Positions 10,435-18,567 of a stretch of DNA of 19,108 nt are shown piece after piece. This DNA is from a virus. Its lineage: Duplodnaviria > Heunggongvirae > Uroviricota > Caudoviricetes. How positions within the stretch are numbered: position 1 is the first letter of the stretch; every line of letters begins with the position of its first letter. The stretch is from the IMG/VR virus record IMGVR_UViG_2534681697_000017, positions 1 to 19,108 of that record; one strand, 5' to 3'. The notes under the pieces are model-generated. The model ran no database searches and was not told the origin of the DNA. It was given only the letters and a program-made list of their open reading frames with translations. The position numbers and the translations under genes were made by a program.

Positions 10435-11154
10435 ATGACGAAGAAAATTACAATTACTGACAAAGACATCCAGAACGCTGAACGACTGCGCAAAATCTGG
10501 GATGAAAAACGGAAACAGCTATCCCTAAGCCAGGAAAAAGCCGCAGATATCCTCGGCTTCAAAACGCAGGGGGCTGTTAGTCAGTTATTGAACGCAAAAA
10601 TTGCGTTAAATACTGAAAATACCCTTAAGTTTGCGGCTTTATTACAGGTTCCTGCGGAAGAAATTAATCCAGATCTGAGTGATTTGTTACGCAGTATTCG
10701 TACCCACACACCGGGAAACAGGCGTAACCTGTTCGAGAAATATTACGAATATCCGTTACTCTCCTGCGTACAGGCTGGAGCTTTCTCAATGGATGATTTT
10801 TCGTACACCGCAAAGGATGCGATTAAGTGGATCTCCACCACCACAAAAGCCAGTGACAGGTCGTTCTGGCTGGAGGTCAAGGGGCATTCAATGACCGCGC
10901 CGCAGGGTGGTAAACCCAGTTTCCCCGAAGGGATGCTGATACTCGTTGACCCTGAGCGGGAGATTGAGGATGGCGATTTTTGCGTGGCCCGAATGAATGG
11001 CGATGAATTCACCTTCAAACGATTCATTCGTGAGAGCGGTAAAGCGTACCTGGAGCCACTCAACCCACGATTCGACATGATTGAGTGTAACGAAAACTGC
11101 CAGTTTGTCGGAAAGGTCATAAAGTCGCAGTGGAATGATGAGACTTTTGATTGA
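10435..11154 (+). CDS. cI: Lambda-family CI repressor (HTH plus S24 LexA-like autopeptidase domain)
   Basis: C-terminal half ([32 protein letters not shown]...[11 protein letters not shown]...[14 protein letters not shown]) closely resembles the lambda CI C-terminal domain as recalled, including an Ala-Gly site (VQAGAF). N-terminal HTH is divergent. Start at ATG 10435 with GGAGG upstream. Confidence 0.9.
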
Positions 11155-11560: not shown

Positions 11561-11905
11561 TTAAGCCCCTGTGTGATGGTTGACTTCTTTTTCCAGCGCC
11601 TTATTAACAAAGGCGTTCAGTGATAAATCTTCTTCCATCGCCATTTCAGCGACCCGACGATGCAGTTCTGGATCAAGTCTGACGTTAAACACACCTTTAA
11701 ACGGGGTATCAGGCTCCTTTCCATCCTCCACACAAGACTGTAAATACAGCTCAACCGATGTCTTAAACTCCTGTTCCAGTTCAGCTAATGTAGAAGCCTC
11801 ATAAGTTACCAGGTCTCGAATAAACGCCAGTTTTCCGTACAGGATATTATTTTCAAAATCTGGTTCTACTGTACCTAAATATCCTTTATATTTTAGATGA
11901 TTCAT
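11561..11905 (-). CDS. hicB: HicB-family antitoxin (HicB fold plus C-terminal ribbon-helix-helix)
   Basis: ATG overlaps the hicA stop (ATGA at 11902-11905); C-terminal ELHRRVAEMAMEEDLSLNAFVNKALEKEV is RHH-like. Confidence 0.7.
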   Translation of the reverse strand: MNHLKYKGYLGTVEPDFENNILYGKLAFIRDLVTYEASTLAELEQEFKTSVELYLQSCVEDGKEPDTPFKGVFNVRLDPELHRRVAEMAMEEDLSLNAFVNKALEKEVNHHTGA

Positions 11906-12156
11906 AATACCCCAGCCTCTTTCAGATTCTGTTTAATCGCTTTCAGCGTTCCACCTTTAATATAACTTTCTGGATGTGGGCGATGCATTAATATGGTGTG
12001 GTTGATTTCAGCATTGAAAAACCGCACTCTTGAGCCCTGCATTTCCTTTTTGACATATCCCAGAGAGGAAAACAAAACGACCAACTCATCCCATTCAAAC
12101 GTTTTTTTACTGTTTAAAAACTTTTCCAGTAGCTTATCTGCTTTCCCCATACCCAC
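11902..12156 (-). CDS. hicA: HicA-family toxin (mRNA interferase)
   Basis: GSRVRF...HRPHP...IKGGTLKAIKQNLKEAG matches the HicA consensus. The listed start is GTG 12156; an alternative ATG lies at 12150. Confidence 0.7.
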   Translation of the reverse strand: MGMGKADKLLEKFLNSKKTFEWDELVVLFSSLGYVKKEMQGSRVRFFNAEINHTILMHRPHPESYIKGGTLKAIKQNLKEAGVL

Positions 12157-12305
12157 ATAATCTCATCTTCGCTACATTGCAACTAATTATAGTTACAGGC
12201 GATGTTTTTGTCAAAAGCCACCAAGCCCGCTGGGTTCTCTTTGACTGTTCACTGCTTTTCTTAGTGTTATCAGGGGGTTCCCTCACACCAAATCTAACAC
12301 AGAGT

Positions 12306-12332
12306 AACCGGCCTCAGCGCCGGTTTTTCTTT
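12306..12332 (+). terminator. Plus-strand intrinsic terminator upstream of the putative early-left promoter
   Basis: AACCGGC-CTCAGC-GCCGGTT stem followed by TTTTTCTTT; no U-run on the opposite strand. Confidence 0.55.
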
Positions 12333-12443
12333 GCGCATCCTCCATAACTCACCACCTGCATTATCCTCGCTTATATTTTTTACATAAATAAATTAATCTA
12401 AAAATCAATCACATAGATTAAAATTAAATTATCAGTCTTACTA

Positions 12444-12473
12444 TTAACTGCGATCAGTTGCGCTTATTATATT
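12444..12473 (+). promoter_or_regulatory. Candidate early-left (pL-like) promoter
   Basis: TTAACT, an 18-nt spacer, then TATATT, within a very AT-rich block; read by eye only. Confidence 0.3.
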
Positions 12474-12495
12474 TTACCCAAGCCAGAAACATCGC

Positions 12496-12565
12496 GCCCT
12501 GACACAGGGCTACATAAATCAGTCGTACGGCGCGACTTAACCCGCCGCAAAATGCTCTTTAACAA
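12496..12565 (+). promoter_or_regulatory. Antitermination-like element: boxB-like hairpin (12496-12510) plus rrn-type boxA (12553-12565)
   Basis: GCCCTGACACAGGGC has the same stem as lambda nut boxB (GCCCU...AGGGC) with a different loop; TGCTCTTTAACAA equals the E. coli rrn boxA consensus as recalled. Confidence 0.4.
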
Positions 12566-12854
12566 TCTGGAGCTTTACAGCGTCAATGACCTGTTTAGAC
12601 CCCTACACGTAAACGTGCTGTATCATCGGGTGCGATCCGGTCGATGAGAGAGTATCCCCGCGCGAGAGCGAGAACGGCGTGAGAACGGGCAACACTGGCA
12701 GGAAGTTGGCGCTGACCAATACAGGGAATGTTTTGGGGTGCAGGCGGCACCGCCAAAGCATTTCCGAGAAAGGACGATATTGACTGCGTGTGATGTCGGG
12801 GCTATATTTGGCGAACACCTCATAAAACGGGTGCCGGGATTAGCACCCCGAAAG

Positions 12855-12893
12855 TTACTCGAGCGCATAACCGCGCTGAAGCGGTTTTTTTAT
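12855..12893 (+). terminator. Putative intrinsic terminator in the leader just upstream of the Rha-like gene
   Basis: CGCATAA-CCGCGCTGAAGCGG-TTTTTTTATGCG: inner hairpin (ACCGC/GCGGT) plus T7 run, enclosed by an outer CGCATAA/TTATGCG stem. Confidence 0.4.
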
Positions 12894-13057
12894 GCGTAAT
12901 GCACAGCCACATTCAAATTATGGTGAGGCGTGCGGGGCAGCCGCAAGGCTGGCCGGGTTCTCGAGTGACCGGTAGTGCTAACCCTGTGCGTCTCACCACC
13001 CATGAGATTAGCACCTCTGGTGGTGAGTTAATTAACTTATCACTTGAGGATGTCATT

Positions 13058-13435
13058 ATGGCTACTACCCTTTCTCACCCTGACGTAACCATCGAAAATG
13101 GTCGCGCCGTCACTACTTCTATTTCGATTGCTGAGTTTTTTGGCAAGCAGCATCACCATGTTGTTCAGAAAATAGAATCCCTCGAATGCTCTGAGCAATT
13201 CTTAACCCGCAACTTTTCGCGGGTTAAATTCGAACACCGAGGCAATACCTATAACGCCTACCAAATCACCAAAAACGGCTTCGTTTTTCTGGTGATGGGC
13301 TTCACCGGCAAAAAAGCAGCTGCATTCAAGGAAGCCTACATTGCTGAATTCGATCGCATGGAAAAACAACTATGGGAACAGAAACAACTGGCCCTGTCTT
13401 CTCCTGCGATGAATATCAATTTCCCTTTATCGTAG
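13058..13435 (+). CDS. Rha-family phage regulatory protein (125 aa)
   Basis: VTTSISIAEFFGKQHHHVVQKIESL resembles the Phage_pRha motif. Start at ATG 13058 with GAGGA 7 nt upstream; the longer ORF from 12899 is rejected. Confidence 0.6.
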   Translation: MATTLSHPDVTIENGRAVTTSISIAEFFGKQHHHVVQKIESLECSEQFLTRNFSRVKFEHRGNTYNAYQITKNGFVFLVMGFTGKKAAAFKEAYIAEFDRMEKQLWEQKQLALSSPAMNINFPLS

Positions 13436-13462
13436 TTTTCAGAGCATCACCCCTATGCCACG

Positions 13463-13696
13463 ATGAACTATGTTGATAGAAATACATTGCAGCTTGATAC
13501 CTCCGTCTTATTCGACATGCCAAGCCCTGCAATGCGCATATTTAATGAATTACGTCGTAACGGCTATAACGTCGATGCGGCTGTCGCCGAATTTAACGCC
13601 TTCAAGCATCTGACGGAAGAAATGCGCCGTAAATTGCTGGATATTTCCCGCACATCGGAAAAGTCTTCCCGCTTTGGTTTCAACGTTAATCTTTAA
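13463..13696 (+). CDS. Hypothetical protein (77 aa)
   Basis: ORF in the early-left operon; weak ribosome-binding site. Confidence 0.45.
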   Translation: MNYVDRNTLQLDTSVLFDMPSPAMRIFNELRRNGYNVDAAVAEFNAFKHLTEEMRRKLLDISRTSEKSSRFGFNVNL

Positions 13697-13766
13697 TTAA
13701 CCCCATCCCCGATCACATATCGGGGATTAAATTAAATATCTGGATTAATTAACCGGAGGATTTGTC

Positions 13767-13979
13767 ATGCTCAAACCTCACTACGGAACCGCATTAGTTT
13801 CTCGCGAGGACGTTAAACCCGGTACAGCAATTCTTTACAACGGGCGTTATTACATGGCGTCAGCTAACGTTAATAATGCACTTTACGCACATTCACTGAT
13901 TGAAAAAATCCGCATTATTTCAGATGCAATCGAAGTTTACCTGAACCATAAAGGCCAACCGTTAATCTCACCAGCCTGA
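13767..13979 (+). CDS. Hypothetical protein (70 aa)
   Basis: ATG preceded by CCGGAGGA. Confidence 0.55.
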   Translation: MLKPHYGTALVSREDVKPGTAILYNGRYYMASANVNNALYAHSLIEKIRIISDAIEVYLNHKGQPLISPA

Positions 13980-17357: not shown

Positions 17358-18240
<883 letters not shown>

Positions 18241-18244
<4 letters not shown>

Positions 18245-18567
18245 TTTTTCCAGAGGCGGTCGAACTCCGCCTTCGCAAAATAAGCGGAAGCCTGGCGAAG
18301 GATATCGTTACTGCGGCGCAGTTCACGATTTTCACGCTCCAGCTCTTTCAGACGCTGACGTTCAGCGGTGGTGAGCCCTCCATCACCGCCCCCGGTATCC
18401 CGCTCATGCTGGCGAACCCAGACACGCAGAGTCTCCGGCGTACAGCCAATCTTTGGAGCAATGGAACAAATTGTCGCCCATTGTGAGTCATATTCGCCCT
18501 GACTTTCCAGAACCATACGGACTGCCCGTTGACGGACTTCGGGGGAAAAACGAGTATTTTTAGTCAT
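18241..18567 (-). CDS. IS629 OrfA
   Basis: 108-aa [42 protein letters not shown]... recognised from memory. Confidence 0.9.

What the first reader, a model, noticed from the sequence alone, without database searches (positions are those of the whole stretch)
12306..13057. About 700-nt ORF-free, GC-rich structured leader bracketed by two intrinsic terminators
Between the hicA promoter region and the Rha-like gene no plus-strand ORF over about 35 codons with a start codon exists. The segment begins with a clean terminator (12306-12332) and ends with a nested hairpin plus T7 run (12855-12893), and contains several short GC stems (for example GGGTGC-N8-GCACCC at about 12828-12847). This is the position where lambda has N. 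It could be a cis-acting regulatory RNA, a small RNA, or the remains of a deleted antiterminator gene.
Basis: seen in the sequence. Interest (0 to 1): 0.5.

Follow-up and report, generated by a model that had tools for sequence, protein, structure and literature searches.

The report
Prophage early-left leader: nutL-like RNA, IsrK, C4
The "empty" 750 bases are the control region of a prophage's early-left operon: a terminator, a promoter, a conserved folded leader RNA with a host antitermination signal (the phi80-type nutL, here with no N protein), and two known small RNAs that control an anti-repressor gene.

Summary
The sequence features are real, but this is not one leader bracketed by two terminators. 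It is five separate units.

1. 12306-12332: the terminator that closes the upstream cI-side operon.
2. 12444-12473: an early-left (pL-like) promoter in a 23% GC stretch.
3. 12528-12712: a leader RNA. It has a hairpin, a boxA identical to the E. coli rrnB boxA, and a 133-nt multi-helix domain with strong covariation. A model built from relatives scores it 194 bits, and it occurs once. GenBank calls this element "nutL" in phage phi80. It is not in Rfam.
4. 12780-12891: the IsrK small RNA with its own promoter and terminator (Rfam 61.6 bits).
5. 12916-13003: a C4-type antisense RNA (78.6 bits). Its loops pair with IsrK and with the ribosome site of the Rha/anti-repressor gene (ATG 13058).

No gene remnant is present. 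IsrK and C4 are ordinary. The leader is the interesting part: about 100 Stx phages, including the O104:H4 outbreak phage, carry it without the phi80 N protein. It has no rightward copy, and a same-strand terminator usually follows within 1 kb. The best reading is a Nus-factor-dependent antitermination RNA that may not need N. That function is inferred, not shown.

The parts
12245..12307 (+). Relic 3' end (about 21 codons and the TAA stop) of the gene that ends the cI-side inserted-gene operon in relatives. Here it is cut off on its 5' side by the hicAB insertion.
   Evidence: Similarity to the Stx phages begins at window 12245. In F039 the CDS at L001 3686-4066 ends in GAGTAA just before the terminator stem.
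12306..12332 (+). Intrinsic terminator (AACCGGC-loop-GCCGGTT plus TTTTTCTTT) that closes the upstream cI-side operon. It is the functional analogue of the lambda t_imm terminator and lies upstream of the pL-like promoter.
   Evidence: Terminator scan. It is conserved at the same place in F039, an O111 prophage and, with a different stem sequence, in P13374.
12444..12473 (+). pL-like early-left promoter: -35 TTAACT (TTGACT in close relatives), 18-nt spacer, -10 TATATT. The inferred transcription start is about 12480. The spacer holds the palindrome AACTG-CGAT-CAGTT, a possible operator.
   Evidence: Promoter scan. It aligns with the annotated pL -35/-10 and CI operators of phi80 and with the annotated promoter of HK225. 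In Stx phages of other immunity types, similarity begins at 12467. Local GC is 23%.
12528..12547 (+). P0: a GC hairpin (CGGCG/CGCCG) directly upstream of boxA. The rrn leader has the same order, hairpin then boxA.
   Evidence: RNAalifold pairs at columns 48-50/63-65; all 3 pairs show changes on both sides. Compared with the rrnB leader.
12553..12565 (+). boxA, TGCTCTTTAACAA, unpaired in the consensus structure. Inferred binding site for NusB-NusE(S10).
   Evidence: Including the next base (12553-12566) it is identical 14/14 to the E. coli rrnB leader boxA. It matches the consensus GYTCTTTAANA of PMC5725501. A boxA-like block sits at this position in 133 of 134 true copies. phi80 annotates the homologous bases as 'nutL boxA'.
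12580..12712 (+). 133-nt structured RNA domain: closing helix P1 (12580-86 with 12706-12), P2, P3, hairpin P4 (12606-17, the phi80 'nutL core'), invariant hairpin P5 (12623-47) and variable hairpin P6. The joining strands are strongly conserved.
   Evidence: Of 34 consensus pairs, 16 show changes on both sides. 97.5% of cells pair, against 28-42% when the partners are slid, and 0 of 500 shuffles reach the observed values. Model R1 matches 12553-12714 at 194.4 bits; the next best match in the window is 9.6 bits. It lies inside the phi80 'nutL regulatory signal' of M11919.
12725..12768 (+). Long hairpin without a U-tract, between the structured domain and the isrK promoter. Function unknown.
   Evidence: Minimum-free-energy fold of 12480-12814. 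It is shared with P13374 but not with phi80 or HK225.
12780..12808 (+). isrK promoter: TTGACT, 17-nt spacer, TATATT.
   Evidence: Promoter scan, 10 of 12 matches. It ends 6 nt before the first position of the IsrK model match. It is conserved in P13374.
12815..12891 (+). IsrK small RNA, including its Rho-independent terminator (12869-12886 plus T7). It carries the upstream target copies a1 (GAUUAGCACC, 12836-45) and b1 (GUUACUCGAG, 12855-64).
   Evidence: Rfam RF01394, 61.6 bits against a gathering score of 50, full length 1-77. Duplex calculations with C4. A weak c4-a1b1 match lies at 12802-12854.
12916..13003 (+). C4-type antisense RNA, the counterpart of STnc1160 in the 'orf45' region of Gifsy-1. 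Its loop CUCGAGUGAC and its single strand AGUGCUAAC are the antisense elements.
   Evidence: Rfam RF01695, 78.6 bits against a gathering score of 45, full length 1-87. Annotated as ncRNA in Stx phage F039. Duplex calculations.
13008..13049 (+). Downstream C4 targets: a2 (GAUUAGCACC, 13008-17) and b2 (UCACUUGAGG, 13040-49). b2 covers the Shine-Dalgarno sequence of the Rha gene.
   Evidence: Direct repeat of the IsrK motifs, and complementarity to C4 (and the sequence).
13058..13696 (+). Rha-domain regulator or anti-repressor gene controlled by the module. It is interrupted by an in-frame TAG at 13433-13435.
   Evidence: Pfam Phage_pRha, E = 8.9e-27. The two ORFs match the two halves of phrog_995. 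P13374 ORF26 aligns across the stop, with W where the window has TAG.

Best explanation
The segment is the control region at the head of the early-left (pL) operon of a lambdoid prophage of the N-less 'Eru1'/Oslovirus Stx-phage type.

Shown:
- A terminator ends the cI-side operon.
- A promoter-like site aligns with the phi80 pL.
- A conserved leader RNA follows, made of hairpin P0, a consensus boxA and a covariation-supported 133-nt domain. This is the element GenBank labels nutL in phi80.
- Next come IsrK, with its own promoter and terminator, and a C4-type RNA.
- The C4 loops are complementary to IsrK and to the ribosome site of the Rha/anti-repressor gene.

Inferred mechanism:
- After induction, RNA polymerase starting at pL transcribes boxA. 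boxA recruits NusB-S10 and the other host Nus factors.
- The adjacent folded domain takes the place that boxB and N hold in lambda.
- The modified polymerase resists Rho on about 580 nt of untranslated RNA. It also reads through the IsrK terminator into rha, recT and exo.
- Transcripts that start at the isrK promoter, downstream of the element, are not modified. Most of them stop, which gives short IsrK.
- C4, processed from read-through RNA, blocks the rha ribosome site. IsrK titrates C4 and opens it, as in P1 immI and Gifsy-1.

The confidence of 0.6 is for the whole statement. The identity of the parts is near certain. The antitermination role of the leader is about even odds or a little better.
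For: Known RNA families and their logic:
- Rfam finds IsrK and C4 above their gathering scores.
- The a1-b1 / C4 / a2-b2 complementarity has b2 over the Shine-Dalgarno sequence. The Gifsy-1 mechanism is described in PMC4825925.

The leader element:
- It sits in the pL leader, downstream of cI, in phi80, HK225, KO-TP1, Edno5 and more than 100 Stx phages.
- Its structure is supported: 16 of 34 pairs change on both sides, 97.5% of cells pair against 28-42% when slid, and 0 of 500 shuffles reach the observed values.
- The model finds exactly one copy in the window and one in each of 99 related loci.
- boxA is identical to the rrnB boxA and is preceded by a hairpin, as in rrn. It matches the published consensus.
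- phi80 records call this stretch nutL.

Independence from N:
- The genes that follow the element are unrelated between lineages.
- None of 40 representative downstream ORFs belongs to a PHROG family described as an antiterminator, among the 25 of 49 matched families that the tool listed.
- phi80 N homologues occur in only 22 phage records. Apart from phi80 itself, none of these is among the records that carry the element.
- Four phages that have the N homologue lack the element.
- PMC8044961 states that Eru1 phages lack N.

Terminators downstream:
- 61 of 86 distinct downstream contexts have a strong same-strand intrinsic terminator within 1 kb. The antisense strand of the 2 kb downstream has one in 19 of 86, and same-strand windows 2.5-4.5 kb further on in 3 of 58.
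- At least six different terminator sequences are involved.
Against: - No transcription, Nus-factor or read-through data exist for this element in the window or in Stx phages. The function is inferred from anatomy and context.
- The commonest variant of the element (phi80 type, 75 of 133 copies) has GCTTTTTAACA. This departs from the boxA consensus at position C4, one of the two positions changed together in the C4T/T6C mutant that abolished SuhB association in PMC5725501.
- In phi80 the element was described together with an N gene. An unrecognised phage factor could therefore still be needed.
- The related loci are not independent samples. Most sequences are 93-97% identical, and the invariant hairpin P5 shows almost no informative variation.
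- The start site of the pL transcript is not mapped.
- The window's -35 is weaker (TTAACT) than in relatives.
- The rha gene is broken by a stop codon, so this copy of the module may no longer be under selection.
Confidence: 0.6

Rival explanations
1. The leader element is a canonical nut site. It works only with a phage-encoded N-like RNA-binding protein that has not been recognised. That protein would be small and fast-evolving, would differ between lineages, and could be encoded elsewhere in the prophage. Hairpin P4 would play the part of boxB.
For: - phi80 records annotate the stretch as nutL, with an N gene 290 nt downstream and the tL1 terminators after it.
- P4 is a short hairpin with an A-rich loop placed after boxA.
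- HK225 gp40 and its relative in L082 have a basic N-terminal stretch, LPKKRQKPRKQAIKEA.
- N proteins are notoriously hard to detect by sequence.
Against: - The first genes downstream are unrelated between lineages. In the window the element is followed by RNAs, not by a small basic protein.
- The phi80 N family and the element are not inherited together.
- The P4 loop varies in length and sequence among near-identical elements (UAAA, AAAA, GAGAAA, CAAA, UUUAAU). The invariant parts are P5 and the joining strands.
- There is no second, rightward copy in the window, in 99 loci, or in the phi80 annotation.
Confidence: 0.25
2. The structured domain does not act on transcription elongation. It is a processing or stability element, or a discrete RNA cut out of the early transcript that works in trans, as C4 and the P4 CI RNA do. 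boxA would then be an independent neighbour that only protects the untranslated leader from Rho.
For: - The domain is a self-contained fold closed by helix P1.
- The lambda N leader also carries a large processed structure (RNase III site; own knowledge).
- boxA alone is known to protect long untranslated RNAs (rRNA, suhB leader; PMC5725501).
- The folding energy of the leader is well below shuffles, z = -3.5.
Against: - The spacing between boxA and P1 is held at 14-17 nt, and the two always occur together (133 of 134 copies).
- The downstream genes vary, so a gene-specific translational role is unlikely.
- There is no own promoter or terminator.
- The strong enrichment of a same-strand terminator just downstream fits an elongation-control role better.
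Confidence: 0.12
3. The region is a decayed protein gene, an N or antiterminator remnant, and its hairpins are incidental.
For: - It occupies the position of lambda N.
- Short ORFs exist on both strands, including 81 aa and 71 aa on the minus strand and 53 aa on the plus strand.
Against: - None of the six ORFs lying wholly inside the region matches a PHROG family.
- Translated searches with the phi80, HK225, KO-TP1 and Edno5 downstream genes find nothing.
- The stretch is 93-97% conserved across phages whose flanks differ, and variation is compensatory in helices.
- A 2-nt indel in divergent members shifts the frame across the conserved GGGCAACACUGGCAG block.
- Two Rfam families account for the 3' third.
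Confidence: 0.02

Closest known systems
phi80 nutL (GenBank M11919 'nutL regulatory signal' 661-938; JX871397 'nutL boxA' and 'nutL core')
   Same: It is the same element. The model scores 201 bits in phi80 and 194 bits in the window. The position after pL/OL is the same. boxA and the P4 'core' hairpin are homologous base for base.
   Different: - phi80 has a 98-aa 'N' gene downstream. The window and the Eru1 Stx phages have none.
- The annotation names only a 9-nt boxA and a 12-nt core. Comparison shows a 133-nt domain of six helices plus an upstream hairpin.
- The window's boxA is the perfect consensus. The phi80 boxA has the C4-to-T variant.
Lambda-type nut sites with N protein
   Same: - A boxA lies in the nascent leader just after the early promoter.
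- An intrinsic terminator follows within the operon.
- The place in the genome is the same.
   Different: - There is no 15-nt boxB with a conserved pentaloop 8 nt after boxA.
- No arginine-rich N protein is found.
- There is no nutR copy.
- The hairpin precedes boxA, as in rrn.
HK022 put RNAs (protein-independent antiterminator RNAs)
   Same: Both are cis-acting folded RNAs in the early leader of a lambdoid phage that lacks a working N. If the novel reading is right, both act without a phage protein.
   Different: - put is about 70 nt with two stem-loops and no boxA, and it has left and right copies (PMC9378689).
- There is no sequence or model similarity to HK022.
- This element is 133 nt, multi-branched, single-copy and tied to boxA.
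E. coli rrn leader antitermination signal (boxB hairpin, boxA, boxC)
   Same: The boxA plus the next base is identical at 14 of 14 positions, and a GC-rich hairpin lies directly upstream.
   Different: What follows boxA has no resemblance to the rrn sequence. The rrn signal is cellular and precedes rRNA. This one heads a phage operon.
Gifsy-1 isrK-orf45-anrP locus (PMC4825925) and the P1/P7 immI c4-icd-ant module
   Same: - IsrK has its own promoter and a leaky terminator.
- A C4-like RNA lies under an upstream ORF.
- An anti-repressor-type gene follows.
- The a1-b1 / antisense / a2-b2 logic is present.
   Different: - Here the module sits directly behind the pL leader, not behind antQ.
- The upstream ORF (ATG 12899 and 12920) is fused in frame to rha instead of ending near its start.
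- The regulated gene has a Rha domain and carries an amber stop.

Membership tests
IsrK (Rfam RF01394) | Covariance-model score above the curated gathering score, over the full length | tested here: met
   61.6 bits against 50, model positions 1-77 of 77, at 12815-12891.
IsrK (Rfam RF01394) | Own sigma-70 promoter and a Rho-independent terminator, located upstream of a small ORF and an anti-repressor-type gene | tested here: met
   Promoter-like site at 12780-12808, terminator at 12869-12886 plus T7, ORF from 12899 and the Rha gene at 13058. Promoter activity was not measured.
IsrK (Rfam RF01394) | Hfq binding, and activation in trans of translation of the read-through mRNA | not testable with these tools
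   Only the complementarity to the downstream C4 region could be computed.
C4 antisense RNA (Rfam RF01695, clan CL00128) | Covariance-model score above the gathering score | tested here: met
   78.6 bits against 45, model positions 1-87 of 87, at 12916-13003.
C4 antisense RNA (Rfam RF01695, clan CL00128) | Two antisense elements complementary to target pairs both upstream (a1, b1) and downstream (a2, b2), the downstream pair covering a ribosome-binding site | tested here: met
   - The C4 loop CUCGAGUGAC pairs with GUUACUCGAG (12855-64) and with UCACUUGAGG (13040-49, the rha Shine-Dalgarno sequence).
- The C4 single strand AGUGCUAAC pairs with GAUUAGCACC at 12836-45 and at 13008-17.
- The Rfam c4-a1b1 model scores only 17.5 bits against a gathering score of 46.7.
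C4 antisense RNA (Rfam RF01695, clan CL00128) | Maturation from a longer transcript by RNase P | not testable with these tools
   No processing data are available.
phi80-type nutL element | Homology to the stretch annotated 'nutL regulatory signal' in phi80, at the same place after pL/OL | tested here: met
   Model R1 scores 194.4 bits in the window and 201.2 bits in M11919 and JX871397, inside the annotated feature. The synteny is shown.
phi80-type nutL element | Presence of the phi80 N protein | tested here: not met
   A translated search of phi80 N against the window gives a best E-value of 0.36. No Stx phage appears among the 22 records with a homologue.
Lambda-type nut site | boxA consensus in the leader RNA | tested here: met
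   GCTCTTTAACA matches GYTCTTTAANA and is identical to the rrnB boxA.
Lambda-type nut site | boxB: a 5-bp stem with a conserved pentaloop a few bases after boxA | tested here: not met
   boxA is followed 14 nt later by helix P1 of a 133-nt domain. The small hairpin P4 has a loop of variable length and sequence.
Lambda-type nut site | A cognate N protein with an arginine-rich motif, and a second site (nutR) in the rightward operon | tested here: not met
   No N is found (and PMC8044961). The element is single-copy in the window and in 99 loci. No nutR is annotated in phi80.
HK022 put RNA | About 70 nt with two stem-loops, related in sequence to putL and putR, with left and right copies | tested here: not met
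   blastn finds no match better than chance. The model finds no hit in the HK022 early region. The architecture differs.
HK022 put RNA | Acts on RNA polymerase without any protein factor, through the beta-prime zinc-binding domain | not testable with these tools
   This needs in vitro transcription or genetics.
rrn-type Nus-factor antitermination signal | A hairpin directly followed by consensus boxA | tested here: met
   P0 (12528-12547, supported by covariation) is followed by boxA (12553-12565). The rrnB leader has the same order.
rrn-type Nus-factor antitermination signal | [quoted passage not shown] | not testable with these tools
   No binding or genetic data are available.

The most novel reading that the evidence does not exclude
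The phi80-type 'nutL' is not an N-utilisation site at all. It would be a self-sufficient antiterminator RNA in which a consensus boxA recruits the host Nus complex and the attached 133-nt folded domain does the job of N plus boxB. That would make it a third class of phage processive antitermination signal, between nut (protein plus Nus factors) and put (RNA alone). It would explain how the N-less Eru1 Stx phages, including the O104:H4 outbreak phage, express their early-left operon.
Probability: 0.3. Interest if true: 0.8.

Novelty: new variant of a known kind. Interest (0 to 1): 0.55.

Why it matters
- Two of the three RNAs here (IsrK and C4) are textbook cases and add nothing new.
- The leader element deserves attention. 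It is a large, covariation-supported RNA that is absent from Rfam 15. Until now it appears only as a 'putative nutL' label in phi80 records.
- It is nearly invariant in the Stx2a phages of the most virulent EHEC lineages (O104:H4, O103:H25, O145, O111). Those phages are reported to have no N protein.
- If it is the antitermination device of these phages, it shows how early gene expression is released after induction in a clinically important phage group.
- It would also give a compact and easily testable model of RNA-plus-Nus-factor control of RNA polymerase.
- It is a ready candidate for a new RNA family. The alignment A4 and the model R1 built here could seed it.

Tried and rejected
- HK022 put similarity: blastn and the model find nothing.
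- Rfam at permissive thresholds across 12100-13200: only IsrK, C4, a weak c4-a1b1 match and a chance snoRNA hit.
- A second, nutR-like copy: none in the window with filters off, and none in 99 loci.
- Operator repeats shared between the cI/cro intergenic region and the putative OL: no shared 8-mers. The operators stay unassigned.
- Coding readings: the six ORFs lying wholly inside the region have no PHROG hits. The basic 34-codon GTG ORF at 12679-12783 starts in a conserved block, but a 2-nt indel breaks its frame in divergent members.
- The 'antitermination' ORF26 of P13374 is an ORF6N (anti-repressor-type) protein, not an antiterminator.
- The genome-collection scan with the 20-base pattern gave mostly chance hits in high-GC genomes. 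Only nine Enterobacteriaceae hits were real.
- The paper by King et al. 2011 on new put-like RNAs could not be read. Overlap with their elements is excluded only for HK022 itself.
- The original 1985 and 1988 phi80 papers are not in the library. What was shown experimentally for phi80 nutL is known to me only through the GenBank feature tables.
Full report
**What is in the sequence.** I read 11700-13800, listed the ORFs and ran Rfam over the whole window. Two curated families lie in the 3' third of the finding. IsrK is at 12815-12891 (61.6 bits, gathering score 50). A C4-type antisense RNA is at 12916-13003 (78.6 bits, gathering score 45). Both are full-length matches on the plus strand, just upstream of a Rha-domain gene whose ATG is at 13058 (Pfam Phage_pRha).

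The GGGTGC-N8-GCACCC stem is the second hairpin of IsrK. A promoter-like site, TTGACT-17-TATATT, ends at 12808, six bases before the IsrK model starts. The hairpin plus T-run at 12306-12325 is also real.

The region is not uniformly GC-rich. 12350-12449 is 23% GC, and 12600-12749 is 61%. It is also not strictly ORF-free. However, no ORF lying wholly inside it matches any phage protein family.

**Genomic setting.** The window is a lambdoid prophage.
- A cI-like repressor lies at 10435-11154 (+).
- A cro-like gene and a helicase/primase replication module lie on the minus strand.
- hicAB lies at 11561-12156 (-).
- After the finding, on the plus strand, come rha, recT, a YqaJ-type exonuclease and ea22.

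So the finding sits where lambda has pL, nutL and N. The closest relatives are Stx2a phages of the Oslovirus or 'Eru1' type: F039, P13374 from O104:H4, TL-2011c, and prophages of O111 and O145. Their order is cI, restriction-modification genes, a toxin-antitoxin pair, a terminator, about 500 nt with no gene, isrK, C4, rha, kil, gam, bet, exo.

Similarity to the window starts at 12245. That is the last 21 codons of the gene which ends that upstream operon. Here hicAB has replaced the rest. The terminator at 12306 therefore closes the cI-side operon. It plays the role of the lambda t_imm terminator (own knowledge) and lies upstream of the promoter, not inside a leader.

**The promoter.** The site at 12444-12473 reads TTAACT, 18 nt, TATATT. 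In F039 and the O111 prophage the -35 is TTGACT. The site aligns with the annotated pL -35/-10 and CI operators of phi80 and with the annotated promoter of HK225. In Stx phages of other immunity types, similarity to the window begins abruptly at 12467. That is what a swapped operator/promoter module followed by a shared leader would give. I could not identify operators shared with the cI/cro intergenic region.

**The leader element.**
- *Distribution.* Bases about 12553-12740 are 93-97% identical to a stretch in phi80, HK225 and Klebsiella phage KO-TP1. Part of the stretch is 78% identical in Edwardsiella phage Edno5. In each case it lies between cI/OL and the first early-left gene. An exact-pattern scan of IMG/VR returned at least 119 contigs, giving 77 distinct core sequences.
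- *Structure.* An alignment of 42 non-redundant members gave an RNAalifold consensus of 34 pairs, 16 of them with changes on both sides. In the control count, 97.5% of cells pair, against 28-42% when the partners are slid. Sixteen pairs with double changes were seen against 7.3 +/- 1.5 in shuffles, and 0 of 500 shuffles reached the observed values.
- *Anatomy in window coordinates.* Hairpin P0 is at 12528-12547. An unpaired boxA, TGCTCTTTAACAA, is at 12553-12565. Fourteen bases later comes a 133-nt domain (12580-12712). It is closed by P1 and holds P2, P3, hairpin P4, the invariant hairpin P5 (UCAYCGGGYGCGAUCCGGUCGRUGA) and a variable hairpin P6. The joining strands are strongly conserved.
- *Copy number and range.* A covariance model finds one copy in the window (194.4 bits; the next best is 9.6 bits). 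It finds exactly one in each of 99 related loci and none in HK022. Among GTDB species representatives, true hits occur only in Enterobacter, Kluyvera and Escherichia.
- *Rfam.* Rfam has nothing here even at E = 5.

**boxA.** The window's boxA with the next base is identical, 14 of 14, to the boxA of the E. coli rrnB leader. In rrnB, too, a GC-rich hairpin directly precedes it. It matches the gamma-proteobacterial consensus GYTCTTTAANA of Baniulyte et al. (PMC5725501). A boxA-like block is present at this position in 133 of 134 true copies. However, the commonest (phi80-type) variant is GCTTTTTAACA, which departs from the consensus at one position.

**It already has a name.** GenBank M11919 (phi80, 1985) marks 661-938 as 'nutL regulatory signal'. 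That feature covers P0, boxA and the whole domain. The phi80 genome record marks 'nutL boxA; putative' and 'nutL core; putative'; the core is my P4 hairpin. It also marks a 98-aa 'N' gene 290 nt downstream and the tL1A and tL1B terminators. The element is therefore the phi80-type nutL. I could not read the original papers, so I do not know how much of this was shown by experiment.

**Is it tied to N?** The evidence says no.
- The first genes after the element are unrelated in phi80, HK225, KO-TP1 and Edno5, and none has a trace in the window.
- Clustering of downstream ORFs from 121 loci shows many unrelated families.
- None of 40 representatives hits a PHROG family described as an antiterminator, among the 25 of 49 matched families that the tool listed. 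Pfam gives nothing for the phi80, HK225, KO-TP1 and Edno5 proteins, nor for a fifth ORF from an IMG/VR locus.
- Homologues of phi80 'N' occur in only 22 phage records. These include a virulent Kagunavirus and Vibrio phages. Apart from phi80 itself, none is among the records that carry the element.
- Four phages that have the homologue show no copy of the element within 2.5 kb.
- Llarena et al. (PMC8044961) state that Eru1 phages lack homologues of N, CII and CIII.
- The 'antitermination' ORF26 of P13374 is an ORF6N anti-repressor-type protein.
- No rightward copy exists, not even in the phi80 annotation.

**Context that points to antitermination.** In 61 of 86 distinct downstream contexts, a strong intrinsic terminator lies on the same strand within 1 kb of the element. 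The antisense strand of the 2 kb downstream has one in 19 of 86. Same-strand windows 2.5-4.5 kb further on have one in 3 of 58. At least six different terminator sequences are involved. These contexts are related to one another, so the counts are not independent.

In the window that terminator is the IsrK terminator, the only strong plus-strand terminator before recT and exo. The operon continues on the same strand beyond it. In addition, about 580 nt of RNA from the inferred start to the rha ATG are untranslated. That is the situation in which boxA-Nus complexes are known to block Rho (rRNA and the suhB leader, PMC5725501; CRISPR arrays, own knowledge).

**The IsrK/C4/rha module.** The C4 loop CUCGAGUGAC is complementary to GUUACUCGAG in IsrK (12855-64). 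It is also complementary to UCACUUGAGG at 13040-49, which includes the rha Shine-Dalgarno sequence. The C4 single strand AGUGCUAAC is complementary to GAUUAGCACC, which occurs both in IsrK (12836-45) and in the rha leader (13008-17).

This is the a1-b1 / c4 / a2-b2 layout of P1 immI (own knowledge; Rfam keeps a c4-a1b1 family, which scores weakly here). It fits the Gifsy-1 experiments, in which short IsrK acts in trans on the read-through isrK-orf45-anrP RNA to switch on translation (PMC4825925). Here the orf45 counterpart (ATG at 12899 and 12920) is fused in frame to rha.

**Most likely working.**
- *In the lysogen:* pL is repressed. The isrK promoter gives mostly short IsrK and a little read-through. 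C4 keeps rha silent.
- *After induction:* pL fires. boxA and the folded domain, on the nascent RNA, load the host Nus factors and make the polymerase resistant to termination. It crosses the untranslated stretch and the IsrK terminator and goes on to express the recombination genes.
- *Status of the steps:* the RNA families, the structure, the complementarities, the synteny and the terminator enrichment are shown. The promoter assignments rest on homology and consensus. Nus recruitment, read-through and independence from a phage protein are inferred.

**Verdict.** Most of the segment is ordinary and explained: a terminator, a promoter, IsrK and C4. The middle part is a known but barely characterised element, the phi80 nutL. 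This analysis shows it to be a much larger conserved RNA fold than annotated, single-copy, rrn-like at its 5' end, and widespread in N-less Stx phages. I rate it a new variant of a known kind, with interest 0.55.

Noticed in passing
window 13433-13435 (within 13058-13696): The Rha/anti-repressor gene is split by an in-frame TAG. P13374 ORF26 reads PLSWFSDNHPYATMNYVDR where the window reads PLS*FSEHHPYATMNYVDR. The two ORFs match the two halves of phrog_995. This is probably a nonsense-inactivated gene, although a 77-aa stand-alone family (phrog_17980) also exists.
   Followed up: partly
window 11561-12245: A hicAB toxin-antitoxin pair on the minus strand, with a perfect consensus promoter (12214-12186), replaces the restriction-modification and Panacea-domain genes found here in related Stx phages. 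Only the last 21 codons of the displaced operon remain (12245-12307).
   Followed up: partly
window 12495-12509: The hairpin GCCCU-GACAC-AGGGC lies near the inferred 5' end of the pL transcript. Its stem is that of the lambda boxB and its loop resembles the P22 boxB loop GACAA (own knowledge). Only 6 relatives have GACAC, 22 have UACAC, and most copies of the element lack the hairpin. It is probably coincidental or a 5' stabiliser.
   Followed up: partly
window 12899-13057: The ORF that overlies the C4 RNA, the counterpart of Gifsy-1 orf45, is fused in frame to rha instead of stopping before it. PHROG profiles of this regulator family include the extension. Gene callers therefore routinely annotate the C4 RNA as protein.
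   Followed up: no
window 12725-12768: A 19-bp hairpin without a U-tract lies between the structured domain and the isrK promoter. It is shared with P13374 but not with phi80 or HK225. Its function is unknown.
   Followed up: no
L015, L027, L043, L044, L066, L100, L061, L041, L025 (columns about 247-285 of alignment A3): In many IMG/VR relatives, helix P1 is followed at once by a strong Shine-Dalgarno sequence and a mini-ORF of 2-5 codons, for example AGAGGAGUGAUUCCAAUGAAGCACUAA. This is a start-stop or minigene arrangement. It is not present in the window.
   Followed up: no
L178-L181 (Escherichia phage 26, Salmonella STGO-35-1, Erwinia EhrS_59, Hafnia yong1): Homologues of the phi80 'N' protein sit among small genes in unrelated contexts. 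One is a virulent Kagunavirus. In Erwinia EhrS_59 it sits next to a different gene that the annotators link by HHpred to lambda N. The 'N' label of the phi80 protein may be wrong.
   Followed up: partly
window 17358-18567 (ALIL pseudoknot at 18286-18170, minus strand): An IS3-family insertion sequence with its frameshift pseudoknot (Rfam ALIL, 115.7 bits) lies at the far end of the early-left operon.
   Followed up: no
L126 13011-13632; L004 5109-5206 (minus strand): Four tandem RtT RNA repeats lie in one IMG/VR locus. An isrB-family match (38.2 bits, gathering score 35) lies in the early-left region of HK225.
   Followed up: no
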